64,000 nucleotides of DNA from Parcubacteria group bacterium (GTDB taxonomy: Bacteria > Patescibacteriota > Minisyncoccia > Phycocordibacterales > UBA2135), in assembly GCA_016180525.1 (NCBI GenBank), contig JACPBB010000001.1:11320-75319 (forward strand), written 5' to 3'. Below, in pieces: positions 3,387 to 18,593 of this stretch (position 1 is the first letter of the stretch; each line of letters starts with the position of its first letter). Both the position numbers and the translations under genes were made by a program. The notes under the pieces were generated by a model. It was not told where the DNA came from, ran no database searches, and worked only from the letters and a program-made list of their open reading frames with translations.

Positions 3387-4715
3387 TTAATTAACATTTT
3401 GAAACCACATTTCTTGATACGCAGTTGTCGTACATTTATCAGTTAGTATTGGATTTCCGACAAAATTACATAGTTCTTTCATTTCTGCCTTAGTTTGTGC
3501 TGAATGTGCTATTAAAGCGCCGATACCCTGAACACAACCGGTTTTTAAATCTGCCCCTGGCGCCGAAGTACACAGTGCCTTAGTTTGAGAAAAATCCATT
3601 TCCAGTATCTGTCTTGTAAGTGATGGCTGAAAATACGCACATCGTTCTCGGTGCTCTTTCGGAAGAGTCGCGCAGGTCCGCCATATATTATTTTTATCTA
3701 GTTGGTCTTGCTTTGCAAAAAAGGCATATTCTATAAAGACACCGTCATAGCAATATTGTCTATTGCCTACAGACAGTCCATCGCATAACAAAAGAGTATT
3801 TTTAATATTAAAATCGGTTTCAATAAGAAGCGGGTGTGCAATGCCTTGCAAGCAAGCGATAGCAGAAAAACTTAAGTTGCCAATAGTCTCTGAAAACATC
3901 TTAACGCATTCGTTTTCCACAGTAACGATATCATTTTTGTGTTCCAACAAAAACCCGGTAATAACGCCGTGTTGGCATCCATAGGTAAATTCATGAGTAC
4001 AATAGTTTAAACTCCCGATACCATATTTTTTAAAAAGAGAATTTCCGATAATATGTGCTAATGAATGGGTGTCGACAATTTGTTTCCCATTTTCAAACCC
4101 AACAAAAGTCAAATATTTTAGAGCAATGCTGGGGAATTTGTTGCTTAGCCGGATAATGTGATTTTTTTGCTCGTAAGAATAAAGGGATGCAAATTTTCCT
4201 TTGTTTAGATAAACTAAAATATCATTTATTTTTTTAGAATCAAATGGAGAACTAAACGCAAGTTTATTTTTAAAATCAACTAAACGGGTATGTCTATCTT
4301 CCTCTGCTTCTACATATACTGTTCCGACCATTTCAGGAAATAAATGATCATGATAACTCCACGCCCCTTCAAATGCATAAATAAATGACCATTGTTCGTT
4401 TGGATTGAGTCCGCGACACGCGTCAAATAAGCTTCCCAAGCAATCTCTTGGAGATGTTTGCGGGTAATTGCTGTGAGTTACGTGCTCATCTGACGCTGGC
4501 CAGTGCTTCCGTGTTCCTTTGTTTATAAAAGTAATCGTTTCTCCGGTTTGTACATATGTGTTTTGTGGTATAAATTTAGAGTCGGTTATAACAACCACGC
4601 TTGGGTGACTTTCATATTTGCTCGGAATGAGGAGCGCCATTATAATGAGGGCAATTACTGCGACGCTATATTCTATATATTTTTTCATAATATATTGTGT
4701 TATATATGATAACAA
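3387..4715 (-). CDS. secreted/membrane-anchored Cys/His-rich family protein with N-terminal Cys-less cupredoxin-like domain
   Basis: N-terminal TM helix. Cupredoxin-like block (WPASDEHVTHSNYPQ ... AWSYHDHLFPEMVGTVYV). Family motifs AHIIGNSLF and CTHEFTYGCQHGV. Many Cys. Paralog of 4697..5668 and 12342..19883. Confidence 0.55.
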   Translation of the reverse strand: MLSYITQYIMKKYIEYSVAVIALIIMALLIPSKYESHPSVVVITDSKFIPQNTYVQTGETITFINKGTRKHWPASDEHVTHSNYPQTSPRDCLGSLFDACRGLNPNEQWSFIYAFEGAWSYHDHLFPEMVGTVYVEAEEDRHTRLVDFKNKLAFSSPFDSKKINDILVYLNKGKFASLYSYEQKNHIIRLSNKFPSIALKYLTFVGFENGKQIVDTHSLAHIIGNSLFKKYGIGSLNYCTHEFTYGCQHGVITGFLLEHKNDIVTVENECVKMFSETIGNLSFSAIACLQGIAHPLLIETDFNIKNTLLLCDGLSVGNRQYCYDGVFIEYAFFAKQDQLDKNNIWRTCATLPKEHRERCAYFQPSLTRQILEMDFSQTKALCTSAPGADLKTGCVQGIGALIAHSAQTKAEMKELCNFVGNPILTDKCTTTAYQEMWFQNVN

Positions 4716-5668
4716 AATATTTTCAAAATAAAAAAAGATTTCCTATTTTACTATTGTGCTTTATATTTGTGGTCTTAATTTTTTCATATACGCAATTGTT
4801 TCATCCGTGTCTATATTTTGATGAAAATAATATAAAAACCCAAACAGAACGTTGGGGGGACTGTATTGATGTGTGGGGTGGAAAAGTGGCACATGCCTTC
4901 TTTAAACAGACAAACAAAGTGGTTCCTAATCAATACAAACATATTAACGCGCATATGTTTGGCAATGCCCTTTACAACAATTACAGCCTTGAAAAAGCCC
5001 TTCTCTTTTGCGATTACGCGTATTGGGAAGGATGTTTCCATGAGCTTTTGTCTCGAGCATTTTTAGACGGGGGATATTCCACTTTAAAAAATATTGCCGA
5101 AACATGCAAAAAAATACTCTCTAGCACTTATTCTACAACTTGTCTGCATGGTTTTGGACATGGCCTTATTGCTCTTGGGAAATATACAACTGATGACTTG
5201 CGCGAAGCTCTTGATTTTTGTTCTTTACATTTTTCTGATACAGAAGGGAAAAAAGATGCTTCAAGGCGAGGGTCAGATTATTTTGGAAACGAATGTTACC
5301 ATGGTGTATTTATGGAATATAATGAACGTAATATGTTACCGGAGTTAGGTCCCCGAGAATTAGATTTTAAAAATATATATACGCCATGTGATACATTGGA
5401 TTCTGAATACAAGGCAACGTGCTATCACAGGCTCGCTTTTAATCTGTGGCCTCACAACATATCAAACATAAATATTACTGTTAAGTATAATACACTGATA
5501 TCGTGGTGTCGTGACATTCCCCAAAAAGAATACCATTATTCTTGCGTAAGTGGAGTTCGTACTTCGATGTTTTTTGTCCCAGAAATATCCGCAAAAGAAA
5601 AAAAGAAGGTTTTAAACTTAGTAGATGAGGTCCTCCGAGAAGTACGGGCCTTTTCTGCCCCGATCTAA
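4697..5668 (+). CDS. secreted Cys/His-rich family protein (CxHGxGHG motif)
   Basis: N-terminal hydrophobic segment. Motifs CFHELL and TCLHGFGHGLIALG shared with the paralog family. Confidence 0.5.
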   Translation: MLYMITKYFQNKKRFPILLLCFIFVVLIFSYTQLFHPCLYFDENNIKTQTERWGDCIDVWGGKVAHAFFKQTNKVVPNQYKHINAHMFGNALYNNYSLEKALLFCDYAYWEGCFHELLSRAFLDGGYSTLKNIAETCKKILSSTYSTTCLHGFGHGLIALGKYTTDDLREALDFCSLHFSDTEGKKDASRRGSDYFGNECYHGVFMEYNERNMLPELGPRELDFKNIYTPCDTLDSEYKATCYHRLAFNLWPHNISNINITVKYNTLISWCRDIPQKEYHYSCVSGVRTSMFFVPEISAKEKKKVLNLVDEVLREVRAFSAPI

Positions 5669-7405: not shown

Positions 7406-7834
7406 TTATAGCGGGTTTACGGCTATAACCTCCGCAACAAAATACCCGTCTTGAATATCATATAAAATTTGAACTTTGTCGCCAGCATATAGATCACTTA
7501 TTGTTGTGTCTTTTATATCTAAAAAGACCAGTGCATTATTCTCAAAATGAGGGATATTTTTTACCACGCGTGTTTCTTCATTAAACACAATTTTAATTTT
7601 TTGATTTTCACGGGTCGGATGATAGTGATTGTTGATTTTCACAATCATATATTTTTCTTCTGGGTTAATGAAAAAAATATTTCCGCCCCTGAAGACTTCT
7701 TCTGATGAGAACGGCGTATAAAGCACTGGTTTATTTTTTTCAGCCATCAAAAATAAAAAAAATAATAAACTCAAACAAAAAACCATGATAATGACAAAAA
7801 AATAACATATTCTTCTTTTTGTTAAAGGAGGCAT
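7406..7834 (-). CDS. hypothetical small membrane-anchored protein
   Basis: ORF with N-terminal TM helix. Only a 4-nt gap to the downstream gene. Confidence 0.4.
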   Translation of the reverse strand: MPPLTKRRICYFFVIIMVFCLSLLFFLFLMAEKNKPVLYTPFSSEEVFRGGNIFFINPEEKYMIVKINNHYHPTRENQKIKIVFNEETRVVKNIPHFENNALVFLDIKDTTISDLYAGDKVQILYDIQDGYFVAEVIAVNPL

Positions 7835-7849
7835 TTGTTTAACATAGTT

Positions 7850-8347
7850 TTACTTTTTATACGTTTTATATTGAATGATTTGTGTTGCGTAAAATCTTTC
7901 TTTATTTCTCTGTACGTAGATAACCAATAAATCTCCCGAAGAAAGTTCATTTAAAAATGATATATCTTTATCATAATAAAAAAACTTATTTGAAATAGTA
8001 TAGCCTTCACGAACAGAGACGCGTGTAGAATCATCAAAATAAACTTTTGTTTTACCGGACACTTGAAAAAATGGATTTGCAATTTGACTCAAAATAATAG
8101 ACTGTTCTTCAAAATTTACCAAATCCAGAGTGACCCACAGCTTCTCTGTTTTTGATTTCATCTGGCTTAATTTGATATCAGAATTTCTTTCATTCACAAG
8201 CGCGGTCTGTTCATTGGTATTTGTTGAAAAAAGAAAGACATGCCCCAAAATAATGCCTAAACTAAAACTGGCAAAAAACAACAATAAGCAGTATTTAAAA
8301 TAAATATTCTCCATGGAGTATAAAGGGCGTGTACTTGGAATTATCAT
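7850..8347 (-). CDS. hypothetical small membrane-anchored protein (true start probably the Met at ~8314)
   Basis: ORF with N-terminal TM helix after an internal Met. Co-directional string. Confidence 0.4.
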   Translation of the reverse strand: MIIPSTRPLYSMENIYFKYCLLLFFASFSLGIILGHVFLFSTNTNEQTALVNERNSDIKLSQMKSKTEKLWVTLDLVNFEEQSIILSQIANPFFQVSGKTKVYFDDSTRVSVREGYTISNKFFYYDKDISFLNELSSGDLLVIYVQRNKERFYATQIIQYKTYKK

Positions 8348-8738
8348 TTAACGAACTATAAACAATGACATACTCACCGGGACGAATATTTTCAATAGAG
8401 CTCTCAATAGTGTCTTTTATGCTATACACTATATCGTCTTTTGAAAAAATAAGAGCTCTTTGAACAATAGTATTTTTATCAAAATAAATTTCATTGATGA
8501 CCCTTTTTTCCGGTGAAAATCGACTTCGTTCTTCAAATTTAATCGTATTTTTTTTAAGATCAACAGACTGAAGAATTCCATATTGCCTTCCGATATATGT
8601 TATTATTCCAGTCTTAATATTTTTATTAACTTGATGTTGCAATACAAAGGATACAGCCAAAAAACCAATTAAAAATCCTGATAATAAAAAAAGGAGGAGC
8701 CCCCAGAAATTGATTCTATTTTTAAACATAATACACAA
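8295..8738 (-). CDS. hypothetical small membrane-anchored protein
   Basis: ORF with N-terminal TM helix. First gene of the string. Confidence 0.4.
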   Translation of the reverse strand: MCIMFKNRINFWGLLLFLLSGFLIGFLAVSFVLQHQVNKNIKTGIITYIGRQYGILQSVDLKKNTIKFEERSRFSPEKRVINEIYFDKNTIVQRALIFSKDDIVYSIKDTIESSIENIRPGEYVIVYSSLNDNSKYTPFILHGEYLF

Positions 8739-8769: not shown

Positions 8770-10437
8770 ATGATTTCGTCTCAAAGGACAGTGGCTATTT
8801 TTATTTTTTTTATAGGCTCTTTTTTATTGCCGCTTTTTTTAATTCCCGGATACTCTTATCTATTCTCAGAAGCGGGTAAATTCGTACTTTTTTTTATTAC
8901 CATACATGTATCGGCGGGGTTTTTATTATATTCATGGTGGAAAAACAACTCTATTGACCTGCCCGCCCATCCTCTTTTTGCATCTCTATACTGTATCTTT
9001 CTTTTTATTTTTCTTTCATCGCTTTTTTCAAAGTCATATTATGTTTCATGGATATACTTTATAAATCATGAAAACACATTTTTCTTTTTTTATCTTTTGT
9101 TTCTCGTACTGTTTTTGTCTATATATTTTTTAAAATATAAGCAAGTAATTTTATATATATATGAGATTATTCTTTTCTCCTTCGTAACCCTCATCCCATT
9201 AAGTGGGGCAATGAATTTTTTTAATAAATTGGGCTTCATTAAAAATATAGAATCATTTCTTGACACAACAACTAATGTCATTATATTTTCAGGACTTGTT
9301 GCCGTTGTTTCATTGCTTTTATATATATTTTCAGAAAGTAAGATGATGCGCGTGTTTCCAATTATTACACTTGTCCTTTCATCACTGATTCTCTTTTGCG
9401 CATTTAAAGAAGAGGCAAAACTTGCCCTTTCTTTTCCCGTTGAAAATATGGCTGTCTTACAAGAAACAATAAAAGAATCTCCCCTGCGAGCACTTTTAGG
9501 AAGTGGGCCTGGAACTGTTCAATATCAATACGATCTATACGCACCTGAAGAAACTCCCACACGATCGTGGAGTAGCAGTCTTTTAATCCAATTTGGACTT
9601 TTAGGTGGATTTGCGTGGATTGTATTTTTTATTTTATTTTTGTATTTTGGCATATGGTCATTTTTGGAAAAAAATGCTTTGGCAATTGGAAATTTTATTG
9701 TTGCTCTATACTTGTGGATTTTTGCCCTTCTATATCCAGTAAATTTTACCCTCGTTGCCTTTACATTTTTATTTACAGGCATTTGTATCACACTCCAAAT
9801 CATTAAAGATTCTGAAAACAAGATCATTATTCCATTACAAAAAAGAAGCTCTCGCGTTGTGTTTGCATGTTTGGTGGGCATTGTACTTTTTACAAGCACG
9901 CTTGGTATTATAGTTTATACAAAAAAATCAATTTCATATGCTTTTTATCAGAATGCTCTTGTGATTGAAAGTAAAGAATTATTTTTAGACACCGTGAAGC
10001 GGGCATTGCAGATTTCAAAAGAGGACATATATTACAGAAAGCTCGCGGATTTTTATATTAAAAAAACAGAGATGGCACAGGGCCTTGTTCTCTTTACTGA
10101 ACAGAATAAAAAAATAGTTGAATATGGCGGAAACGCCGTTTCTTATGCCAATGAAGCCGTTCGTATAAATCCGAGCGATTACAGAAATTGGGGGACGCTC
10201 GGAAACATATACCTTGTATTTGAAAGGTTGGGCGTACGCGGAGGATACGAGCTTGGAAAAAATGCTTATTCAGAAGCACAAAAACTAAGTCCCAAAAATG
10301 AAATATTGCTCTTGGAGCGCGCGGAGTTGGCGTTTCTTGCCAAAGATATTCATTTTAGGGAACTATTGAAAGAATTACTGCAATATAATCCACATAACAT
10401 AGAGGCTCAAAAAAGATTGCGTGAGTGGGGATTGTAA
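8770..10437 (+). CDS. polytopic membrane protein, O-antigen ligase (Wzy_C)/O-oligosaccharyltransferase-like, with C-terminal TPR repeats
   Basis: >=10 hydrophobic helices. Central loop GSGPGTVQYQYDLYAPEE...RSWSSSLLIQFGLLGG resembles a Wzy_C loop. The C-terminal ~150 aa has TPR-like repeats. Confidence 0.4.
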   Translation: MISSQRTVAIFIFFIGSFLLPLFLIPGYSYLFSEAGKFVLFFITIHVSAGFLLYSWWKNNSIDLPAHPLFASLYCIFLFIFLSSLFSKSYYVSWIYFINHENTFFFFYLLFLVLFLSIYFLKYKQVILYIYEIILFSFVTLIPLSGAMNFFNKLGFIKNIESFLDTTTNVIIFSGLVAVVSLLLYIFSESKMMRVFPIITLVLSSLILFCAFKEEAKLALSFPVENMAVLQETIKESPLRALLGSGPGTVQYQYDLYAPEETPTRSWSSSLLIQFGLLGGFAWIVFFILFLYFGIWSFLEKNALAIGNFIVALYLWIFALLYPVNFTLVAFTFLFTGICITLQIIKDSENKIIIPLQKRSSRVVFACLVGIVLFTSTLGIIVYTKKSISYAFYQNALVIESKELFLDTVKRALQISKEDIYYRKLADFYIKKTEMAQGLVLFTEQNKKIVEYGGNAVSYANEAVRINPSDYRNWGTLGNIYLVFERLGVRGGYELGKNAYSEAQKLSPKNEILLLERAELAFLAKDIHFRELLKELLQYNPHNIEAQKRLREWGL

Positions 10438-10489
10438 GGGTATCCACAGTTGTCGACGATTAGATTAGCATGTATAATGATATGCAAAT

Positions 10490-11056
10490 ATGAAAAGTGC
10501 TGAAAAAATGTCATTGTTCATCGGAGGATTATTTTTAATGCTCATTCCATTTTTGGCGTCTGGTCAATCCGGGTCAACAAAATTAACTGATTCAGTAACA
10601 ATTGGAGGTAGTATAAATATTACCGGCTCTATTGCAAAAGGAAGCGGTACGCTTGTCATAGATCATCCGCTTGATCCAGCGAATAAACTGCTCTATCATT
10701 CGTTCGTTGAATCTCCGGATGTTAAAAATATTTACGATGGTGTTGTGAAATTAAATAGAAACGGAGAGGCAAAAGTAAAACTACCAAAATATTTTGAAGC
10801 GCTTAATAAAGATTACCGGTATCTTGTGACCCCAATTGGAAAACCATCTCCCAATCTTTACATTAAACAAGGTGTTGAAAATAATATGTTTATTATTGCT
10901 GGAGGGGAAGCGGGAATAAAAGTCTCCTGGCAAGTAACGGGTATCCGCCGTGACCCACATATTATTGCAAACCCAATTATTCCTGAAATTGAGAAGGGGA
11001 CCAGTGCGTTAGTAGATAAAGGAGTTTATATATTACCTGAAATATATGGAAACTAG
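10490..11056 (+). CDS. small secreted protein, tandem family member 1
   Basis: Signal peptide MSLFIGGLFLMLIPFLASG. Shares a near-identical block GSG(T/S)(L/F)VIDHPLDPANKLLYHSFVESPDVKNIY with the two downstream copies. Confidence 0.55.
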   Translation: MKSAEKMSLFIGGLFLMLIPFLASGQSGSTKLTDSVTIGGSINITGSIAKGSGTLVIDHPLDPANKLLYHSFVESPDVKNIYDGVVKLNRNGEAKVKLPKYFEALNKDYRYLVTPIGKPSPNLYIKQGVENNMFIIAGGEAGIKVSWQVTGIRRDPHIIANPIIPEIEKGTSALVDKGVYILPEIYGN

Positions 11057-11534
11057 ACAAACACCTGTTGTTATAATTATCACATCCGGAATTATGGGGG
11101 CAATTTTTCTTTTCCCGTATATTGCGTCGGCAATCTCTCGTATTAATGAAAGTGTTACGGTGCGAGGAAACGTGGTTGTTACCGGCGCGCTTGCAAAAGG
11201 TTCCGGCTCATTCGTCATAGACCATCCACTTGATCCTGCTAATAAATTACTCTATCATTCGTTCGTTGAATCTCCGGATGTTAAAAATATTTATTTTAGA
11301 TATCAATTCTCCTCTCTTGAAAAACCTTCTCCTAATCTTTATATAAAACAAGAAATACGAAATAATAGATTTGTAATCTCCGGAGGTGAACCAAAAATTA
11401 GAGTATCGTGGCAAGTAACAGGCGTGAGACATGACCCGTATATTCTTAAAAATCCGATTATACCAGAGGTAGAAAAAGGGTCTAATGAGTTGGTAAATAA
11501 GGGAGAATATGTATTTCCTGAATTATATGACTAA
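11046..11534 (+). CDS. small secreted protein, tandem family member 2 (internal ~25-aa deletion relative to member 1)
   Basis: Same conserved block. The middle segment DGVVKLNRNGEAKVKLPKYFEALNKD is absent. Confidence 0.5.
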   Translation: METRQTPVVIIITSGIMGAIFLFPYIASAISRINESVTVRGNVVVTGALAKGSGSFVIDHPLDPANKLLYHSFVESPDVKNIYFRYQFSSLEKPSPNLYIKQEIRNNRFVISGGEPKIRVSWQVTGVRHDPYILKNPIIPEVEKGSNELVNKGEYVFPELYD

Positions 11535-12265
11535 AACAACATTTAAAAAAAAGAATAACACTAACAAACTATTTTTTCTCTTTTTGATAGGTTTTTTGTT
11601 TTATTTTCAATTACCATCTATAGCAAAAGCTGCTTATAGTCAGGGTTATTACTATGCTCAAGGTTACTACTATGGCGAGGGTTATTACTATGCAGAAGGC
11701 TATTACTATGCTCAAGGAACATATAGAACAACTTTTACTACTAATACCACATTTACCCAAAATTTAACGATTACCGGAGAATTAAAAAAAGGTTCCGGCT
11801 CATTCGTCATAGACCATCCACTTGATCCTGCTAATAAATTACTCTATCATTCGTTCGTTGAATCTCCGGATGTTAAAAATATTTAGAGTTGTAACGCTTG
11901 ATGAAAAAGGTGAAGCAGTAGTCGAGCTTCCTGCGTATTTTGAAGCACTCAATAAAGATTTTAGATATCAGGTTAAGCCAATAAATAAATCGTCTCCTAG
12001 TTTGTATATAAAAAGCGAAATAAAGGATAATCAATTTATGATTGCCGGAGGTGAACCAAAAATTAGAGTATCATGGCAAGTAACAGGCGTGAGACATGAC
12101 CCGTATATTCGCGCAAACCCAATTATTCCCGAGACAAGAAAGGGGCGAAATGAAATAGTAAACAGGGGAGAGTATTTGTTTCCCGAGCTGGCAGGAAAAT
12201 ATATTGAAACCCAAATATCTTTATGGGAAAAAATGGTATTCTTCTTTAACTCTCTTTTCAAGTAA
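11509..12265 (+). pseudogene. tandem family member 3, interrupted by an apparent 1-nt deletion (ORFs 11509..11886 and 11822..12265)
   Basis: Copy 1 reads NIYDGVVKLNRNGEA. Copy 3 reads NI* in frame, then continues as RVVTLDEKGEAVVELPAYFEALNKDFRYQVKP in the +1 frame. The N-terminal part carries a Tyr-rich (GYYYA)x4 repeat. Confidence 0.45.
11641..11720 (+). repeat. 15-nt tandem repeat encoding (GYYYA)x4-5 within tandem-family copy 3
   Basis: cagggttattactatgctcaaggttactactatggcgagggttattactatgcagaaggctattactatgctcaagga translates to QGYYYAQGYYYGEGYYYAEGYYYAQG. Confidence 0.7.
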
Positions 12266-12289
12266 GATTATATAGATTTTAAAAACAAA

Positions 12290-12322
12290 ACAGTATATTG
12301 TATATGCAATATACTGTTTTTT
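12290..12322 (+). terminator. intrinsic terminator after the tandem secreted-protein genes
   Basis: Perfect palindrome acagtatattg-tatatg-caatatactgt followed by tttttt. Confidence 0.65.
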
Positions 12323-12341
12323 GTGTCATGCATATCTAAAT

Positions 12342-13367
12342 ATGAAATTGTTACCATATCAAAATATATTATTTATAGCTGTAATTATCATAGGAGGTGT
12401 TTTGCTCCATAAAAATCTGTCGTCGGAATCATTTTTAGGATTTTCTCTAAAAAAAGAACAAAAATATTGGTCTGAACACATGAGCACTAAAAACGCCGAA
12501 CAGATTTCTGAAATATTCCAAAAGAAATATAAGAAGCTCAATCCCGCTGAACAACATGCCGCAGCCCACATCGTTGGCGAAGCTATTTATAAAAAACAAA
12601 GTTATTCGGGAATTGTGTTTTGTGATTACGTAATTGGAGACGCTGGATGCGTTCATGAGTTGATGACGTTGGCAATTTTAGAAAATGGACTTAATATAAT
12701 ACCATCAATAAATAAAGAATGCTTGAATTTGCCAAGCAACAAAAGAACAGCCTCGTGCCAACACGGCGTGGGCCATGGAATATTGTTTTATTTGGGATAC
12801 GATTATAAAAGTTTACTCAAAGGGCTTGAACAATGTTCCCTAATTACCGCTCCATATCTTAGAGAGAGTGTCCGCTACGTGGAAGGATGCGTTGGGGGTG
12901 TGCTTATGGAATATAATTCAAACCCGTCATTAAATAAAAGCCAAAAACCAAGAGTTTTTGCGCTAGATTCCGTATACGTTCCGTGTACTTCTCTGGGAGA
13001 AGAGATGCGCTCAGTTTGTTATTTTTGGCAAACTCAGTGGTGGAATGCAAATTTAAAAGATTATAATACTATAGGAAAATATAAAAAAATGGGAGAACTA
13101 TGCACTGTTATAGTTAATGCGAATGAAAAAACATGGTGTTTCCGTGGAATCGCGCATGCAATGATCCCAGACACTAAGTGGATAGTAAAAAAAGCATTAC
13201 ATTTTTGCAATTCCATAACATTAGACGCGGGAAGACAGGAATGCCAGGCATACGCCGCTTTTCTTTTTAAAGATGAGGGGTTAGAATCCGTATGTAATTT
13301 TGTAAATGATGAAGAAAAAAAAGAGTGTGTTGAAATATCGTCTTCTCTTCTTGCAAGCGAGAGTTAA
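12342..13367 (+). CDS. secreted Cys/His-rich family protein
   Basis: Signal/TM MKLLPYQNILFIAVIIIGGVLL. Motifs AAAHIVGEAIY, GCVHEL, SCQHGVGHGILFYLG. ~18 Cys in repeated C-x(8-12)-C units. Confidence 0.55.
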   Translation: MKLLPYQNILFIAVIIIGGVLLHKNLSSESFLGFSLKKEQKYWSEHMSTKNAEQISEIFQKKYKKLNPAEQHAAAHIVGEAIYKKQSYSGIVFCDYVIGDAGCVHELMTLAILENGLNIIPSINKECLNLPSNKRTASCQHGVGHGILFYLGYDYKSLLKGLEQCSLITAPYLRESVRYVEGCVGGVLMEYNSNPSLNKSQKPRVFALDSVYVPCTSLGEEMRSVCYFWQTQWWNANLKDYNTIGKYKKMGELCTVIVNANEKTWCFRGIAHAMIPDTKWIVKKALHFCNSITLDAGRQECQAYAAFLFKDEGLESVCNFVNDEEKKECVEISSSLLASES

Positions 13368-13373
13368 ATTATC

Positions 13374-14444
13374 ATGAAATTTCAATCTGAAAAAAACATA
13401 ATAATTTTTCTTGTGATTATTTCCGGAATCTTTTTTTTATATAACAAAAATATTCCGGAGTTTTTTGTAGGTACACCTCTAGGCCCTCAGCTCTCAAATA
13501 TTGGCAATAGTCGTGAAGATCTTCAAATTAAAAGGGATCATTGGAAAAGCCGTATAAACGAAATTGGTCCAGAGAGCGCCTACTCTGAATTCTTACAAAC
13601 ATACAACCATATGAATTTTGAGAAACAGCATACTTTTGCGCATATCATGGGTGAGCTTCTTTATGAAAAAGTAGGAGTTAATGGTTTAGCAATATGCGAT
13701 AAGTCATTCGCGTTTGGCTGTTTCCACGGTTTTTTTACGGGAGCAATTAGCAAAGAGGGAATTGGAGTTATAGCTAAGCTCGACAATGCCTGTCTTAAAA
13801 AATTTGGACCATATGGAACAGGGTGTCAACACGGTATTGGGCACGGTATTTTAGAGCACGTAGGACCGGATTCACTGGTTAAAGGGCTTGAGGCATGTAG
13901 ATTCACTACTCAGATAGAATCATCGCATTTTGGTTGCACCTCCGGTGTTTTTATGGAATATAATACACAAACTATTTTTACTAGAGATAATGTCTATCAA
14001 AAAGTGAGAGACTTAAAAGAACAAAACCCTTTTGAGCCCTGTAATACACTAGTACCAAGCAAATTTAAAAACTCTTGTTATTTTGAAATAAGCGCATGGT
14101 GGATGCAGGTATTTAACAAAGATCATATAAAAGTAGGCCAACTCTGCCAAATGATACAAGGGGAAGAATATAGAAAGTCGTGTTATTTGGGATTTGGTAC
14201 GGTAAGCGCACATCTTGCTCAATATAATGTTTCAGATGCAATAAAAATATGTAAAGAAACGTCAGGCGGAAACATAGAAGCTGAATTATTATGCCGAGCA
14301 AGCGCTTCATGGTCTTTTTGGGCGATGCCGGGGCATAAACAAGAGTCTCTTGCCCTGTGTGATAATTTTGAAGATGAAGAAGTTGAATTTCGTTGTGTGA
14401 GCGAATCTGACCTTATCGGAACAGGAGAAAAATTCAATAAATAA
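13374..14444 (+). CDS. secreted Cys/His-rich family protein
   Basis: N-terminal TM. Motifs FAHIMGELLY, GCFHGFFTG, GCQHGIGHGILEHVG. Confidence 0.55.
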   Translation: MKFQSEKNIIIFLVIISGIFFLYNKNIPEFFVGTPLGPQLSNIGNSREDLQIKRDHWKSRINEIGPESAYSEFLQTYNHMNFEKQHTFAHIMGELLYEKVGVNGLAICDKSFAFGCFHGFFTGAISKEGIGVIAKLDNACLKKFGPYGTGCQHGIGHGILEHVGPDSLVKGLEACRFTTQIESSHFGCTSGVFMEYNTQTIFTRDNVYQKVRDLKEQNPFEPCNTLVPSKFKNSCYFEISAWWMQVFNKDHIKVGQLCQMIQGEEYRKSCYLGFGTVSAHLAQYNVSDAIKICKETSGGNIEAELLCRASASWSFWAMPGHKQESLALCDNFEDEEVEFRCVSESDLIGTGEKFNK

Positions 14445-14456
14445 TTTTGTATATCA

Positions 14457-15932
14457 ATGGGAAAAAAAACTTTACGCATATTAATTATAGTAATTTTTTT
14501 AATTGTATTGTCGGGAATATACTATACTCTTTTTGAGACCCAAAAAAATAAAAATCATATCATTGAGCTTCGTGAAACCGGTTTTTATCCAAAAACAATT
14601 ACGATAATTCAAGATGATGCTGTCTTGTTTAGAACAAAACTTAATGAAACATTCTGGCCGGCAAGCGATCCGCATCCAATTCATAATTATTACCCTGAAG
14701 AAAATTTTGACCCCCAAAGAGCCCTTGGGCCCGATGAAGAATGGCAGTTTACATTTACACAAGCCGGCACGTGGAGATATCATGACCATTTAAATCCATC
14801 TTTACGGGGAGAAATTACAGTACTTCCAAATAAAAGCTATACTGCGTATTTACCGTGTAAAAAAGAAACCGGACAATGTTTTGACGAACTTATACGAAAA
14901 ACAGTTTCTGAAAAAGGAATAGCCGCTGCGTACGCGCTTTTTACCGAAACATACGCAAAAGGAGAGTTACCGCGTGCATGCCACTGGACAGCGCACCAGA
15001 TAGGGGAAGAAGCGTATGAGTTATTTAAGGGCGGGGAAACATTTCCCATAACAGGCGAGACATCATATTGCGGATATGGATTTTTTCACGGTTTTCTTGA
15101 GAGCTTGTTGCGGGAAAATCCCGATGTTAAATTTGCTCTTTCTTTTTGCGATGAGGCTGAAAGGCAATTGGGTATATTAGGACTTCAGAACTGCTATCAT
15201 GGCATAGGGCATGGATTTACCGAAGACCCTCCGGATCCATCCGTATGGGGCAATTTTGAAGGAATGGTAGCACCTGGCATAGAGATATGCGAATATTTAT
15301 TTAAAAATTCATTTACAAACCTTAATTTATGCCTTACGGGCGTATTTACCGTCCCTGTCGGATTTGCGGAAAAGAAAGAGTATGGGTTGTCGCTAAGCCC
15401 CAGTGACCCATTTGCCATATGCAGAGAGCAGCCATACAAATACCAAAAAGCCTGCTATGGAGAAATTACACCAAAACTGGACTCTATTTTAGAAGGTGAT
15501 TTTTCTCAATTTCCAAAACACCTTGCCGGTATTACTGATGAAAAAATAAGAAATTTAATTATTTGGGTTGCTCCATCTGTCATGGTCGCGCGTGAGATTC
15601 TTAAAGACGATTATGGTGGGTTTATAGAAGTGTGCAGAAACAACTTTGTCGGTATTGAAAGAGAAATTTGCTGGGGCGGAATAATACTCGGATTTTTTAC
15701 GCATGGAGAGCCTGAAAAACAATATAAAAAAGGAATTTCATTCTGTAAATCACAGCTGTTTAATGCTTCGGAAAAAAAATTCTGCTATAAACAATTATTT
15801 CACAGAATGCACGCTGAATACACAGAGGATAAAATAAAAAATATTTGCACTAATGAAGTTTCGGAAACATATCGCTCTTCATGCTTATCAAAAAATCAAC
15901 AATCCATATACAAAGACCCTGTTTTTGAATAA
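14457..15932 (+). CDS. secreted Cys/His-rich family protein with N-terminal Cys-less cupredoxin-like domain
   Basis: N-terminal TM. Cupredoxin-like block (TITIIQDDAVLFRTKLNETFWPASDPHPIHNYYPE ... AGTWRYHDHLNPSLRGEITV). Motifs CHWTAHQIGEEAY, YCGYGFFHGF, NCYHGIGHGF. Confidence 0.55.
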   Translation: MGKKTLRILIIVIFLIVLSGIYYTLFETQKNKNHIIELRETGFYPKTITIIQDDAVLFRTKLNETFWPASDPHPIHNYYPEENFDPQRALGPDEEWQFTFTQAGTWRYHDHLNPSLRGEITVLPNKSYTAYLPCKKETGQCFDELIRKTVSEKGIAAAYALFTETYAKGELPRACHWTAHQIGEEAYELFKGGETFPITGETSYCGYGFFHGFLESLLRENPDVKFALSFCDEAERQLGILGLQNCYHGIGHGFTEDPPDPSVWGNFEGMVAPGIEICEYLFKNSFTNLNLCLTGVFTVPVGFAEKKEYGLSLSPSDPFAICREQPYKYQKACYGEITPKLDSILEGDFSQFPKHLAGITDEKIRNLIIWVAPSVMVAREILKDDYGGFIEVCRNNFVGIEREICWGGIILGFFTHGEPEKQYKKGISFCKSQLFNASEKKFCYKQLFHRMHAEYTEDKIKNICTNEVSETYRSSCLSKNQQSIYKDPVFE

Positions 15933-15933
15933 C

Positions 15934-17409
15934 ATGCAAAAATTTAAAATAAAAAAATATCTTTTCGGACTTTTCATTATCATTCCGATTGTCGGACTAA
16001 GCGGGTATCACGCATATCAAAAATCAACCCCTGCAAATGTTATATTCTCAGAAATTGGAACATACGGAGCAACATTAACGGAGCAAGGTTTTATGCCAAA
16101 AGAAATTACTATTCCAATTGGCTCAACTATCGTTTTTTCCACAACACTAGATAAATTTTTCTGGCCAGCATCAAATTTTCATCCATCTCATGCAATATAT
16201 CCTGAATTTGACGCTAAAAATCCAGTTCCATCCGGAGAAAGTTGGAAATTTCAATTTAAAGAAGCTGGAACATGGGAATATCATGACCATCTATCTCCTT
16301 ACTTTGGAGGAACGATAAGAGTAACGGATGAAATAAATACAACATTAAAAGAAAACCTATGTGAAAATAACAAAAAACAATCAGCATGCTGGCGGTCCCT
16401 TTTATTTTCTCAATTAAAAAATAATGGTATTGACACAACATTTTCTATCCTTGAGAGCCTGTACAAAACAGAGTTAGGATTTAGAGAAACGTGCCATGGA
16501 ATTACCCACGATCTTGGGATTGAGTCATACCAGTATTTTTTAAAAAACAAAGATTTAATTTTAACTACAAAATCATCGGCATGCGCGTATGGATTTTATC
16601 ATGGATTTATGGAGGCGCTTCTTACTCATACGGGTGACATACAACAAGCGCGTGAATTTTGTCTTTTTATTGATAAAAAAATAACCCCAGATATACCAGA
16701 TGCGACACTGCAGTGTTTCCATGGCATTGGACACGGAATTATTGACATGCAGGTCACTTTCAACGGTCGTCAACAGGACAAAGAAATGCTTATAAAAGAT
16801 GCGTTGTCATTTTGTGAAAGCGCTTCTCGGACAGACGAGGAGCTCTATCGATGTGCTTCTGGGATATACAATAGCGTTGCAAACATATACATACTTGAAA
16901 AAAACTGGTCCTTAAAACAAGATGAGATTATCTCTCTTTGTACGCATCAGCCAGAAAAATACAAAGAGAGTTGTTACGGGAATATGAACTCTCTTATGTT
17001 TCGCGCCGCGGATAACAATTTAGGAAAATCACTCATTTTTATAAACGAAATAGAGGAACAATATAGAGAATCTGCTGTCCGCTATCTTTCAAATTTAAGC
17101 GTTATATATACAATTCTGCAGGATAAAGATTACGACGAGGAGGTGGGGGCATGCCGTTCTTTGCCGGACATTCTTTATACAGCATGCCTTGAAGGTCTTG
17201 TACACGGGCTTCTAGAGCATGGACAGCCCAGAGAGGAATATAAAAAAGTAATTGATTTCTGCGAGGCTCCAATCCTTACCATGTCCGAAACGGAGAAATG
17301 CTTTGAATATGGACTTTCAAATCTTGGAGGCTGGTATTTAAAAGAAAAATCGCAAGAAATTTGTAATGAAATACCCGAAACGTATAAACAATATTGTAAG
17401 CAAGTTTAA
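15934..17409 (+). CDS. secreted Cys/His-rich family protein with N-terminal Cys-less cupredoxin-like domain
   Basis: Start moved to the ATG at 15934 (MQKFKIKKYLFGLFIIIPIV TM segment), which removes an 80-nt overlap. Cupredoxin-like block (FWPASNFHPSHAIYPEF ... AGTWEYHDHLSPYFGGTIRV). Motifs CHGITHDLGIESY, CAYGFYHGF, QCFHGIGHGII. Confidence 0.55.
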   Translation: MQKFKIKKYLFGLFIIIPIVGLSGYHAYQKSTPANVIFSEIGTYGATLTEQGFMPKEITIPIGSTIVFSTTLDKFFWPASNFHPSHAIYPEFDAKNPVPSGESWKFQFKEAGTWEYHDHLSPYFGGTIRVTDEINTTLKENLCENNKKQSACWRSLLFSQLKNNGIDTTFSILESLYKTELGFRETCHGITHDLGIESYQYFLKNKDLILTTKSSACAYGFYHGFMEALLTHTGDIQQAREFCLFIDKKITPDIPDATLQCFHGIGHGIIDMQVTFNGRQQDKEMLIKDALSFCESASRTDEELYRCASGIYNSVANIYILEKNWSLKQDEIISLCTHQPEKYKESCYGNMNSLMFRAADNNLGKSLIFINEIEEQYRESAVRYLSNLSVIYTILQDKDYDEEVGACRSLPDILYTACLEGLVHGLLEHGQPREEYKKVIDFCEAPILTMSETEKCFEYGLSNLGGWYLKEKSQEICNEIPETYKQYCKQV

Positions 17410-17414
17410 TTTTT

Positions 17415-18593
17415 ATGGAATCAATATATAAAAAAAATGTTCTGTTGCCTTTTCTCTTTTTGTTCGTGGTAGCGATGATTATTTTTTACATTAAACCAAA
17501 CTCTTCACTTGCACATCACGCAGCATCTATTTTGCAAATATGCGCAACAGAAGAATATAAACCAGCTTGCTACGATAGAGAAATACCCAAATTGATGGAC
17601 ACCGAGCTTTCAATGGAAAATGCGTTTGCTGTTACGAAACTGATTCAACAAAAAGATGATTCATATTTTTACTGCCATGTATTGGGACACAACTTGAGCG
17701 CGAAAGAAACTGCCAAAGACCCTTCAAGGTGGAAAGAAGTTATTGCTCGCACTCCAAGCGGTATGTGTTCAAACGGAGGCATCCATGGTGCTTTTCAGGA
17801 AAGGTTTAGAGCTGAAGCACTGCCAGAGGCAAGTGTTGCTGAATTAGAGCCCATTCTTACTGATATTTGCAATAAACGAGAAAACTGGAACCCGACACGA
17901 CTGGAACAGGCAACGTGCACGCACGCCGTGGGACATCTAGTGATGTACGTTACAGGCGGGGATATTCATAAATCTCTGGCACTCTGTGAAAAAGTCGCAT
18001 TTAACGAAGAGGGGTATGATTTTAAACAAATTTGTTTTGACGGAGCGTTTATGCAAATATTCCAGCCGCTTGAGCCGGAAGATTACGTACTCATAAAAGG
18101 GAGGGAACAGACACGAGAGACCGTTAATTCATTTTGTGAAAAATTTACGGGAGCACGCTATGGATCATGTCGTTCGGAAAGCTGGCCACTTTTTCACGAA
18201 GAAATAAAAACAGCTCCAGGTCTTACTCGTTTTTGCTCTTTTCAAAAAGATTTTGAACAAAAAGAGCGCTGTTATTCAGGAATGTTTTACGTATTAACGG
18301 CAGAATTTAATTTAGACCCCATTAAAATTGAAAATCTTTGCGAAGCATTTCCTCAAGAGTTGAAAAATAAATGTTTTGCAAATGCCGCATCTCGGATGAT
18401 TGAAACTGATTGGAGCAAAATTCCTGACGCAATTTCTTTGTGCGCTATTTCAGAAAAACACGGAGCAGGAGATGCGTGCTATAGAGAATTATTGCTATAT
18501 TCTAACTATAATTTTCACCCAAGATCTAAAGAATTCTATTCGCTATGTCGGCATTTACCTAATGGGTGGGAAGGAAAGTGTCTTTCAGGGTAA
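17415..18593 (+). CDS. secreted Cys/His-rich family protein
   Basis: N-terminal TM. Motifs YCHVLGHNLS, CSNGGIHGAF, TCTHAVGHLVMY. Confidence 0.5.
   Translation: MESIYKKNVLLPFLFLFVVAMIIFYIKPNSSLAHHAASILQICATEEYKPACYDREIPKLMDTELSMENAFAVTKLIQQKDDSYFYCHVLGHNLSAKETAKDPSRWKEVIARTPSGMCSNGGIHGAFQERFRAEALPEASVAELEPILTDICNKRENWNPTRLEQATCTHAVGHLVMYVTGGDIHKSLALCEKVAFNEEGYDFKQICFDGAFMQIFQPLEPEDYVLIKGREQTRETVNSFCEKFTGARYGSCRSESWPLFHEEIKTAPGLTRFCSFQKDFEQKERCYSGMFYVLTAEFNLDPIKIENLCEAFPQELKNKCFANAASRMIETDWSKIPDAISLCAISEKHGAGDACYRELLLYSNYNFHPRSKEFYSLCRHLPNGWEGKCLSG

What the first reader, a model, noticed from the sequence alone, without database searches (positions are those of the whole stretch)
10490..12265. 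Tandem triplet of small secreted proteins with identical nucleotide blocks, an internal deletion and a frameshifted copy
Three consecutive plus-strand genes share an identical ~60-nt block encoding VIDHPLDPANKLLYHSFVESPDVKNIY. The stretch gatcatccgcttgatcc... / ctctatcattcgttcgttgaatctccggatgttaaaaatattta recurs verbatim. Copy 2 lacks the ~25-aa segment DGVVKLNRNGEAKVKLPKYFEALNKD found in copy 1. Copy 3 has the segment but loses frame by an apparent 1-nt deletion right after ...aatattta, and continues in +1 as RVVTLDEKGEAVVELPAYFEALNKDFRYQVKP. Identical DNA blocks among otherwise diverged paralogs indicate ongoing gene conversion or recombination between the copies. That would fit a phase/antigenic-variation-like secreted protein cassette. 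The adjacent upstream gene (8770..10437) is an O-antigen-ligase/oligosaccharyltransferase-like membrane protein that could modify them.
Basis: seen in the sequence. Interest (0 to 1): 0.55.

Follow-up and report, generated by a model that had tools for sequence, protein, structure and literature searches.

The report
Gene-converted triplet of secreted tail-fibre-like proteins
Three neighbouring genes of an uncultured groundwater-type bacterium (Parcubacteria) encode small secreted proteins built on a domain related to phage tail-fibre tips. The copies keep overwriting each other's DNA, and in this genome two of the three look broken, so this is ordinary gene-family evolution in an unstudied but very widespread protein family, not an antigenic-variation switch.

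Summary
Three co-oriented, overlapping genes (10490-12265) share a 44-nt exact block, and copies 2 and 3 share 99 nt exactly. Copy 2 lacks 26 codons. Copy 3 changes frame exactly where the shared block ends, through a net 5-nt loss, not 1 nt, which removes the family-invariant Y-D-G.

The genes belong to a large family with no Pfam, NCBIfam or PDB sequence match (12,938 clusters at 50% identity, many phyla). Its ~150-aa domain is homologous to the C-terminal part of a few phage tail proteins. In other phyla it ends long repeat-rich proteins.

In Patescibacteria it occurs as a conserved tandem triplet. Type A is short, type B is short, and type C has a Tyr-rich N-terminus and an amphipathic tail. 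Ten of 11 fully flanked loci have three copies.

Within-genome identity at synonymous sites is 0.72-1.00, against 0.28-0.38 between orthologues. A type-specific stretch is nevertheless preserved across genomes. This shows concerted evolution by gene conversion.

The phase/antigenic-variation and O-antigen-ligase ideas are not. Whether the frame break is real could not be tested without reads. Function (probably a trimeric surface knob) is inferred only.

The parts
10450..10478 (+). Promoter-like site (TTGTCG, 17-nt spacer, TATAAT) 12 nt upstream of the copy 1 start
   Evidence: 10 of 12 consensus matches, tied for best in the region and the only such site in the intergenic gap upstream of copy 1. 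This is a consensus match only.
10490..11056 (+). Copy 1 (type A, 'YRYLVTPIG'): intact 188-aa protein with a signal-peptide-like N-terminus, a short neck and the conserved domain
   Evidence: identical to NCBI HYT93_00110; 3324 homologues. AF2 mean pLDDT 78.5, with the 10-residue blocks covering residues 81-150 averaging 91-98. HMM positions 10-193, 308 bits.
11046..11534 (+). Copy 2 (type B, 'FRYQFSSLE'): 162 aa with an in-frame 78-nt internal deletion (junction at 11293/11294). Its start overlaps the copy 1 stop by 11 nt.
   Evidence: HMM match split into 12-89 and 116-193; the deletion removes the invariant residues G84, G92, L98, P99, Y101, F102, L105, N106. AF2 mean pLDDT 67, only 11 residues at 90 or above, and residues 67-84 below 50.
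11509..11886 (+). Copy 3, 5' part (type C): signal-peptide-like N-terminus, Tyr-rich repeats, neck and first conserved block. It ends at TAG 11884-11886.
   Evidence: HMM 10-88. The orthologue L001 6020-6757 is one intact 245-aa ORF.
11640..11717 (+). 18-nt tandem repeat, 4.3 copies, encoding (Q/E)GYYYA units of the type C N-terminus
   Evidence: Comparable Tyr-rich repeats occur in type C (sometimes type B) copies of other genomes.
11787..11885 (+). 99-nt tract exactly identical to 11195-11293 in copy 2. Its 3' end coincides with both the copy 2 deletion junction and the copy 3 frame break.
11885..12265 (+). Copy 3, 3' part, in the +1 coordinate frame: remainder of the domain ('RVVTLDEKGEAVVELP...FRYQVKPINKS...') plus a C-terminal amphipathic tail (ISLWEKMVFFFNSLFK). 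It has no signal peptide of its own.
   Evidence: HMM 92-215, 186 bits; 68% identity to L001 copy 3 residues 120-243.
12045..12110 (+). Second near-identical tract (65/66 nt) shared with copy 2 at 11380-11445, lying after a diverged type-specific stretch
12287..12320 (.). 14-bp perfect palindromic hairpin flanked by A and T runs. It looks like a terminator and closes the three-gene unit.
   Evidence: I1.

Best explanation
The region is one operon (promoter-like site, three overlapping genes, terminator-like hairpin). It encodes the Patescibacteria-typical A-B-C triplet of small proteins, each with a signal-peptide-like N-terminus. Each protein is a short neck plus a ~150-aa domain homologous to the C-terminal part of some phage tail-fibre or minor-tail proteins.

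In other phyla the same domain terminates long repeat-rich, fibre-like proteins. It is therefore most likely a trimer-forming terminal knob displayed on the cell surface (inferred).

Recurrent gene conversion between the tandem copies homogenises most of the domain within each genome. Selection appears to preserve a type-specific stretch (HMM positions 113-136), the neck, and the type C extras (Tyr-rich N-terminus, amphipathic C-terminal tail).

In this particular genome two of the three copies are damaged. Type B carries a 78-nt in-frame deletion between the imperfect direct repeats AATATTTA and AATAAAGA. Type C carries a 5-nt frame-breaking loss at exactly the same left boundary, which is also where the 99-nt tract identical between B and C ends. 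The most economical reading is that a conversion tract copied from the deleted B copy into C ended imprecisely at the heterology (inferred, not shown). Copy A is the only clearly intact member.

This is concerted evolution with local decay, not a programmed variation system.
For: - Operon anatomy.
- Family size and lack of annotation. No Pfam, NCBIfam or PDB sequence match, and only marginal PHROG matches (E > 0.03). 3324 hits in one search. 12,938 50%-identity clusters at E <= 1e-3, mostly as the C-terminus of 200-1200-aa proteins. At least 589 loci across many phyla.
- Phage homology. Foldseek against BFVD gives E 1.9e-10 to the Arthrobacter phage Mufasa8 minor tail protein, and also hits the P-SSM2 tail fiber-like protein and collagen-repeat phage proteins at 26-33% identity. 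tblastn gives 33-35% identity at E 4e-7 to 1e-6. The family HMM gives iE 1.4e-13 and 4.4e-15 on those phage genes. Mufasa8 gp19 is the last tail gene after the tape measure gene. Weak PDB fold hits go to tailspike and tail-fibre tips.
- Fibre context. YadA_head, Gly-rich and lectin N-terminal parts, and 'GVYG' repeats directly upstream of the domain.
- The triplet is conserved. Three tandem copies in L002, L003, L004, L005, L007, L009, L010, L011, L012 and L016, plus the window and L001. A/B/C types and their order are given.
- Concerted evolution.
- Damage. The L001 orthologue of copy 3 is intact. Invariant residues are lost. The copy 2 model loses confidence: mean pLDDT 67 versus 78.5, and 11 versus 66 residues at 90 or above. 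No other listed homologue of copy 2 shows the deletion.
Against: - The function is not shown. No member of the family has been characterised, and no paper mentioning the motif was found.
- Trimer formation and surface location are inferred from homology and domain context only. No signal-peptide predictor was run.
- The PDB fold matches are all weaker than E 1e-3.
- The frame break lies at the edge of a 99-nt exact repeat in a short-read metagenome-assembled genome (MAG). An assembly artefact therefore cannot be excluded, and no independent assembly was found.
- Copy 2 and its L001 counterpart both keep their reading frame. That is weakly compatible with retained function, although chance alone gives about 1 in 9.
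- The link between the conversion tract and the two lesions is an inference from coincident breakpoints.
Confidence: 0.68

Rival explanations
1. Phase- or antigenic-variation cassette. On this view the conserved blocks serve as recombination substrates to shuffle a variable segment among copies or to switch copies on and off, so that the cell changes a surface antigen.
For: Conserved blocks flank a variable stretch, and conversion tracts are demonstrably exchanged between copies. The products have signal-peptide-like N-termini, so they would be exposed. One copy is out of frame.
Against: - The variable stretch falls into three types conserved across genomes, and same-type identity between genomes exceeds within-genome identity there.
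- All copies have starts and signal-peptide-like N-termini in one operon, and there are no silent cassettes.
- The frame break is a 5-nt loss outside any repeat tract and is not readily reversible.
- There are no invertible-element-like inverted repeats.
- Other genomes carry three intact copies.
Confidence: 0.06
2. The copy 3 frame break is an assembly or consensus artefact at the boundary of the 99-nt exact repeat. On this view the real genome has an intact type C gene. Gene conversion and the copy 2 deletion would still stand.
For: The break lies exactly at the end of a repeat that is longer than many assembler k-mers. The sequence is a short-read MAG (names). The orthologue is intact in the closest relative.
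Against: Repeat-induced misassembly normally collapses or swaps segments rather than removing 5 nt. Both repeat copies and their distinct flanks are present and collinear with L001. A 5-nt loss is not a typical Illumina error. Frame-broken copies also occur elsewhere, for example L040.
Confidence: 0.2
3. The shortened copy 2 (and the L001 copy 2) is a functional short isoform, for example a capping or regulatory subunit, rather than a decaying gene.
For: Both deletions are in frame and keep the signal-peptide-like N-terminus, the most conserved N-terminal block and the C-terminal block. The type B slot is affected in both sister genomes.
Against: The two deletions differ in extent (26 aa versus about 63 aa). 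Eight invariant core residues are lost. The AF2 model loses confidence in the core. No such short form appears among the other 119 listed relatives of copy 2 or in 10 other triplets.
Confidence: 0.08
4. The genes are remnants of a prophage tail-fibre module.
For: The domain is homologous to phage tail proteins.
Against: No phage genes are nearby, and the neighbours are uncharacterised membrane or Cys-rich proteins. The triplet and its neighbours are syntenic in many Patescibacteria. The proteins carry signal-peptide-like N-termini. Only 5 of 50,697 phage records contain the domain, against thousands of cellular genes. PHROGs gave only marginal matches.
Confidence: 0.03

Closest known systems
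C-terminal domains of phage tail-fibre / minor tail proteins (Arthrobacter phage Mufasa8 and Sonali gp19; cyanophage S-TIM54 hypothetical protein between virion structural genes; Prochlorococcus phage P-SSM2 tail fiber-like protein)
   Same: There is detectable sequence and predicted-fold homology over family HMM positions ~45-166. The domain sits in the C-terminal part of the protein, after fibrous or collagen-like parts.
   Different: The window proteins are cellular, have signal-peptide-like N-termini, and are almost domain-only (neck plus knob). They are far more conserved (50-60% identity across phyla) than receptor-binding tips usually are. They also carry about 30 extra C-terminal residues not matched in the phage proteins. 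None of the phage homologues has a solved structure or a known function.
Concerted evolution of bacterial paralogues by gene conversion (for example tufA/tufB or rRNA operons; from general knowledge)
   Same: Paralogues are more alike within a genome than orthologues are between genomes, including at synonymous sites. The tracts are mosaic with sharp borders.
   Different: Here conversion acts on three tandem genes that nevertheless keep three distinct, cross-genome-conserved segments. In this genome it is also associated with two lesions at a tract border.
Gene-conversion antigenic variation systems (Neisseria pilE/pilS, Borrelia vlsE, Anaplasma msp2; from general knowledge)
   Same: Conserved blocks flank a variable segment, and there is recombination between tandem copies of a surface protein gene.
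   Different: There is no expression-site versus silent-cassette asymmetry and no hypervariability. The variable segment has only three conserved states.
Trimeric autotransporter adhesins (the label JGI gives to some long relatives)
   Same: Some long relatives carry YadA_head repeats upstream of the domain (P0200; names).
   Different: No YadA anchor or any other Pfam domain is found in the window proteins. Here the C-terminal domain is the tail-fibre-like knob, not a beta-barrel anchor. Patescibacteria are generally considered to lack an outer membrane (general knowledge).

Membership tests
Phage tail-fibre C-terminal (knob) domain superfamily | Significant sequence or profile similarity to bona fide phage tail proteins | tested here: met
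   tblastn E 4e-7 to 1e-6 at 33-35% identity. Family HMM iE 1.4e-13 (Mufasa8 gp19) and 4.4e-15 (S-TIM54). Foldseek BFVD E 1.9e-10.
Phage tail-fibre C-terminal (knob) domain superfamily | Fold match to experimentally solved fibre or tailspike tips | tested here: inconclusive
Phage tail-fibre C-terminal (knob) domain superfamily | Homotrimeric (or trimeric) assembly | not testable with these tools
   Only monomer AF2 was available. The most conserved block (residues 50-80) is the least confident part of the monomer model, which is compatible with an inter-chain role but proves nothing.
Phage tail-fibre C-terminal (knob) domain superfamily | Encoded in a virion or tail gene module | tested here: not met
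   The neighbours are non-phage and syntenic across Patescibacteria. PHROGs gave only marginal matches for the window proteins.
Concerted evolution by gene conversion | Within-genome paralogue identity exceeds between-genome orthologue identity at synonymous sites | tested here: met
   Third-position identity is 0.72-1.00 within genomes and 0.28-0.38 between them in block KGSG..VKNI. Exact runs are 44-100 nt versus at most 15 nt.
Concerted evolution by gene conversion | Mosaic tracts, recurrent in independent genomes | tested here: met
   Tract map of copies 2 and 3. Exact tracts of 74-186 nt occur in L002, L003, L004, L007 and L012, and are absent in L005, L010 and L016. Position profile over 10 genomes.
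Phase/antigenic variation cassette system | One expressed copy plus promoterless or truncated silent donor cassettes | tested here: not met
   Each copy has a start codon and a signal-peptide-like N-terminus. All lie in one operon between one promoter-like site and one terminator-like hairpin.
Phase/antigenic variation cassette system | Hypervariable segment that differs freely among copies and strains | tested here: not met
   The variable stretch has three states conserved across genomes. Same-type identity between genomes is 0.53-0.64, against 0.41-0.56 within a genome.
Phase/antigenic variation cassette system | Reversible switch (repeat tract at the frameshift, or an invertible element) | tested here: not met
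   The frame break is a 5-nt non-repeat loss. The only tandem repeat is an in-frame 18-mer elsewhere. No flanking inverted repeats apart from the terminator palindrome.
Phase/antigenic variation cassette system | Within-population heterogeneity of the arrangement | not testable with these tools
   No reads are available. Exact look-ups of three window proteins and two metagenome DNA scans found no independent assembly.
Programmed ribosomal frameshift (copy 3) | The frameshift is conserved in orthologues and the product keeps conserved residues | tested here: not met
   Type C genes are single intact ORFs in L001-L005, L009, L010 and L016. Any fused product would lack Y82 and G84 (invariant) and D83 (at least 90% conserved).
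O-antigen ligase / O-oligosaccharyltransferase (upstream gene 8770-10437) | Wzy_C (PF04932) or another glycosyltransferase family match | tested here: not met
   Pfam at E <= 1 gives only Holin_SPP1 (below cut-off) and weak TPR matches. NCBIfam gives nothing. Homologues carry only TPR families.
O-antigen ligase / O-oligosaccharyltransferase (upstream gene 8770-10437) | Conserved genetic linkage to its supposed substrates | tested here: not met
   Adjacent to the triplet only in the window and L001. In L002 a weak homologue lies about 4 kb downstream of the triplet. Seven loci have a different large protein upstream.
Trimeric autotransporter adhesin | C-terminal YadA-type membrane anchor | tested here: not met
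   No Pfam match in any window copy. Long relatives show YadA_head at most, and no anchor.

The most novel reading that the evidence does not exclude
The A, B and C proteins may be the three different chains of an obligate heterotrimeric knob. This would be a Sec-exported cellular relative of a phage tail-fibre tip.

On this reading the invariant D-H-P...H-S-F-V-E-S-P-D block would form a shared inter-chain (possibly metal-binding) core, and gene conversion would keep it identical in all three chains. The short type-specific stretch and the type C Tyr-rich arm and amphipathic tail would give each chain its position and anchor the complex on the cell.

In episymbiotic Patescibacteria this could be a host-attachment organelle. 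The same unannotated domain would be a universal terminal module of bacterial surface fibres in more than 15 phyla. The window genome would then be a natural near-knockout, with only A intact.
Probability: 0.15. Interest if true: 0.7.

Novelty: new variant of a known kind. Interest (0 to 1): 0.42.

Why it matters
As a genome feature, this is a clean natural example of gene conversion homogenising tandem paralogues while selection holds three short type-specific segments apart. It also shows a conversion tract border coinciding with two disruptive lesions.

As biology, it points to a very large family that none of the libraries searched here annotates. There are about 13,000 50%-identity clusters with 50-60% identity across phyla, no Pfam, NCBIfam or PDB sequence match, and only marginal PHROG matches. 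The family is related to phage tail-fibre termini and, in Patescibacteria, is organised as a conserved three-gene set beside other uncharacterised secreted protein families.

If the products form surface knobs or adhesins, they are candidates for the still poorly understood cell-to-cell attachment of these ultra-small bacteria.

The specific claim of an antigenic-variation switch should be dropped.

Tried and rejected
- Family libraries. Pfam, NCBIfam, PHROGs and a PDB sequence search on the three copies gave nothing significant. Pfam on the phage homologues and on 20 long relatives gave only occasional N-terminal domains and none for the shared domain.
- Independent assemblies to check the frame break. 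Exact-protein look-ups of copy 1, copy 2 and the 5' part of copy 3 were 'not on record'. Two exact DNA scans of metagenome contigs, one allowing 0-6 nt at the junction, found nothing.
- Programmed +1 frameshift at AUU-UAG-A. Rejected because orthologues are unshifted and the product would lack conserved residues.
- Invertible promoter or site-specific inversion. Rejected because there are no suitable inverted repeats.
- Prophage remnant. Rejected on gene context.
- O-antigen ligase reading of the upstream gene. No support.
- Literature. No paper contains the motif strings, and two keyword searches on Patescibacteria, tail fibres and gene conversion returned nothing relevant.
- A precise molecular mechanism for the 5-nt loss (microhomology or template switch). 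No convincing microhomology was found. Only the copy 2 deletion has flanking imperfect repeats, AATATTTA and AATAAAGA ([D4], 66).
Full report
**1. What is in the sequence**

Between 10490 and 12265 there are three co-oriented genes.
- Copy 1 (10490-11056, 188 aa) is intact.
- Copy 2 (11046-11534, 162 aa) starts 11 nt before the copy 1 stop.
- Copy 3 starts at 11509 or 11527, overlapping the end of copy 2. It runs to a TAG at 11884-11886 and continues in the next coordinate frame to 12265.

A promoter-like site (TTGTCG, 17-nt spacer, TATAAT; 10450-10478) precedes copy 1. A 14-bp perfect palindrome with flanking A and T runs (12287-12320) follows copy 3. The three genes therefore look like one transcription unit.

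All three N-termini have a charged start, a hydrophobic stretch and an A-x-A-like site (LAS|GQ, ASA|IS, AKA|AY). This was read from the sequence, and no predictor was run. AF2 models an N-terminal helix there.

**2. The repeated blocks**

- A 44-nt run is exactly shared by all three copies.
- A 99-nt run (11195-11293 = 11787-11885) is exactly shared by copies 2 and 3.
- After a diverged stretch, copies 2 and 3 are again 65/66 identical (11380-11445 versus 12045-12110).
- Copy 2 lacks 78 nt (26 codons, D83-D108 of copy 1).
- The copy 2 deletion lies between two imperfect direct repeats, AATATTTA and AATAAAGA (family D4). This suggests a slippage or short-homology deletion (inference).

**3. The frame break**

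The closest relative found is a Kaiserbacteria MAG contig (L001). It has the same gene order, and its copy 3 is one intact 245-aa ORF reading ...VKNIYDGVVTLNEGGEAVVELPSYFEALNKDFRYQVKP....

Codon-by-codon comparison shows that the window has 'TA..GA' where L001 and copy 1 have 'TAC GAT GGN'. This is a net loss of 5 nt, not 1. It deletes Y82 and G84, which are invariant, and D83, which is at least 90% conserved, in a 44-sequence family alignment.

A programmed frameshift is therefore unlikely, and a single-base sequencing error cannot be the cause.

The left edge of this loss, the left edge of the copy 2 deletion and the end of the 99-nt identity tract all fall after the same nucleotide (...AATATTTA). 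I infer that a conversion tract copied from the already-deleted copy 2 into copy 3 ended imprecisely at the heterology. This is not shown.

An assembly artefact at the repeat edge cannot be excluded. I could not find any independent assembly.

**4. The family**

- The copies have no significant match in Pfam, NCBIfam, PHROGs or PDB sequences.
- Copy 1 nevertheless has 3324 homologues in the word-indexed search. All are unnamed or 'hypothetical', and the top hits come from Parcubacteria, Kaiserbacteria and Paceibacterota.
- Copy 1 is identical to NCBI HYT93_00110 from a 'Parcubacteria group bacterium' MAG (344,533-bp contig).
- An exhaustive phmmer search of 1.84 billion cluster representatives found 12,938 proteins at E <= 1e-3 and 4,876 at E <= 1e-30. 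In nearly all of the best 150 the match is the C-terminal ~150 residues of a 200-1200-aa protein.
- A scan of species-representative genomes found at least 589 loci at 50-60% identity. The phyla include Chloroflexota, Acidobacteriota, Bacteroidota, Planctomycetota, Verrucomicrobiota, Ignavibacteria, Desulfobacterales, Nitrospiraceae and Trueperaceae.
- In those phyla the domain ends single large proteins. It is directly preceded by Gly/Val/Tyr-rich short repeats ('GVYG...'). N-terminal parts occasionally match YadA_head, Laminin_G_3, LVIVD or Gly-rich families.

**5. Relation to phage tail fibres**

- The AF2 model of copy 1 has mean pLDDT 78.5. The 10-residue blocks covering residues 81-150 average 91-98 and form a beta-sandwich.
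- It gave only weak PDB matches, though they recur among tailspike and tail-fibre tips.
- It gave 28 matches at E <= 1e-3 in the viral predicted-structure library. The best was the Arthrobacter phage Mufasa8 minor tail protein (E 1.9e-10, 29% identity). Others were the P-SSM2 tail fiber-like protein and collagen-repeat phage proteins.
- tblastn against 50,697 phage records found five records. These were gp19 of Mufasa8 and Sonali and a hypothetical protein of cyanophage S-TIM54, at 33-35% identity.
- The family HMM scores those genes at iE 1.4e-13 and 4.4e-15.
- Mufasa8 gp19 is the last tail gene after the tape measure gene. The S-TIM54 gene lies between virion structural genes.

The domain is therefore homologous to the C-terminal part of some phage tail-fibre-like proteins. 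It is overwhelmingly cellular, and here it sits in a non-phage, syntenic chromosomal context.

**6. The triplet is ancient and conserved**

In Patescibacteria loci with enough flanking sequence, three tandem copies are the rule. This holds for L002, L003, L004, L005, L007, L009, L010, L011, L012 and L016. L006 has one copy, and L008 and L014 are cut by contig ends.

A short stretch after '...YFEALNxD' defines three types.

| Type | Signature stretch | Other features | Window copy |
|---|---|---|---|
| A | RYLATPIG-like | short | copy 1 |
| B | RYQFFP- or RYQYTA-like | short | copy 2 |
| C | RYQ[VLTM]KPI-like | usually Tyr-rich N-terminal repeats and a ~20-aa amphipathic C-terminal tail | copy 3 |

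The usual order is A-B-C.

Among the Patescibacteria loci, only the window and L001 have damaged copies. In L001 copy 2 has an even larger in-frame deletion, NIY|AWQVTG. Among the 120 best listed hits of a search with copy 2, every protein other than copy 2 itself is at least 172 aa. The deleted form is therefore sporadic.

An AF2 model of copy 2 loses most of its confidence. Mean pLDDT is 67, 11 residues are at 90 or above (66 in copy 1), and residues 67-84 are below 50. This is weak evidence, but it is consistent with a compromised fold.

**7. Concerted evolution**

- In the block KGSG...VKNI, third-codon-position identity is 0.72-1.00 among copies of one genome. Between window and L001 orthologues it is 0.28-0.38.
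- All window copies read PANK where all L001 copies read PKNK.
- Long exact tracts between copies recur in L002 (179-186 nt), L003 (170 nt), L004 (119-128 nt), L007 (74-134 nt) and L012 (89 nt). They are absent in L005, L010 and L016. Matches at identical coordinates in that output are overlapping segments and were ignored.
- Over 10 genomes, within-genome/different-type identity exceeds between-genome/same-type identity at HMM positions 89-112 and 145-184.
- The reverse holds at positions 113-136 and in the neck at 41-56.

Conversion therefore homogenises most of the domain while three type-specific segments are maintained.

**8.

Gene conversion is supported.

A phase- or antigenic-variation cassette is not supported.
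- There is no asymmetry between an expression site and silent cassettes.
- There is no hypervariability and no reversible switch motif.
- Other genomes carry three intact genes.

The upstream 555-aa multi-pass membrane protein has only weak C-terminal TPR matches and no Wzy_C or glycosyltransferase match. Its few homologues carry only TPR families. It is adjacent to the triplet only in the window and L001. Its architecture does not exclude a glycosyltransferase-like role, but nothing tested here supports one.

**9. Most likely working model**

Shown:
- an operon of three paralogous genes with signal-peptide-like N-termini;
- homology of the domain to phage tail-fibre termini;
- concerted evolution with preserved type-specific segments;
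- two damaged copies in this genome.

Inferred:
- The domain forms a trimeric terminal knob on the cell surface. The basis is its position after collagen-like, YadA-head-like or beta-solenoid-like repeats in relatives, together with the phage homology.
- The conserved A-B-C set with overlapping genes suggests stoichiometric co-production, possibly a heterotrimer.
- The His/Asp/Glu-rich invariant block could be an inter-chain or metal site, as in several phage fibres. This comes from my own knowledge and was not tested.
- In this genome only type A is likely functional.

**10. Novelty and score**

The phenomenon (gene conversion plus pseudogenisation in tandem paralogues) is ordinary. I found no description of the family or of its conserved triplet organisation in Patescibacteria in the libraries and papers searched. 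I rate it a new variant of a known kind, with moderate interest.

Noticed in passing
window 3387-4715(-), 4697-5668(+), 12321-13367, 13374-14444, 14457-15932, 15853-17409 (+), 18585-19883(-): There is an expanded family of at least 7 Cys-rich paralogues with an N-terminal hydrophobic segment and a recurring 'GC.HG.GHG' motif. None has a Pfam match, apart from a weak Cupredoxin_1 hit at the N-terminus of 14457-15932. Homologues flank the triplet in 10 other Patescibacteria loci, so the two families form a conserved neighbourhood.
   Followed up: partly
L002 2923-6393, L003 2607-6929, L004 1782-5585 (also L005, L010, L012, L016): In seven other Patescibacteria loci a 1156-1440-aa protein lies immediately upstream of the triplet. 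It has a conserved ~330-aa C-terminal region and no Pfam match. It is absent from the window and L001, where the 555-aa TPR membrane protein takes that position.
   Followed up: partly
window 17415-18593: This 392-aa protein has no Pfam match. Its homologues lie close to the triplet in L001 and L005-L009.
   Followed up: no
window 7406-8738 (- strand): Three consecutive small genes (142, 165 and 147 aa) have N-terminal hydrophobic segments. Two of them have weak homologues in the same relative position in L001.
   Followed up: no
window 11640-11717; L001 6118-6190: An in-frame 18-nt tandem repeat encodes the Tyr-rich hexapeptides (Q/E)GYYYA. The L001 orthologue has four exact YGQSYY units. Other genomes have up to about 35 Tyr in this arm, so its length varies strongly between genomes.
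   Followed up: partly
window 8770-10437: NCBI annotates this gene as a 408-aa protein (HYT93_00105), whereas the ORF from the first ATG is 555 aa. In L001 the orthologous region is split into two ORFs of 424 and 186 aa.
   Followed up: no
window 1-64000: No tRNA gene and no Rfam family reached threshold anywhere in the 64 kb.
   Followed up: yes
L040 754-1209 (Candidatus Sumerlaeia MAG): A second example of a frame-broken copy of the same domain. The HMM match is split into 44-124 and 127-198 in different frames, next to an intact long family member.
   Followed up: no
window 39718-41418(-) / 39724-41337(+): Two very long ORFs (566 and 537 aa) overlap almost completely on opposite strands, so one of them is presumably spurious.
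   Followed up: no
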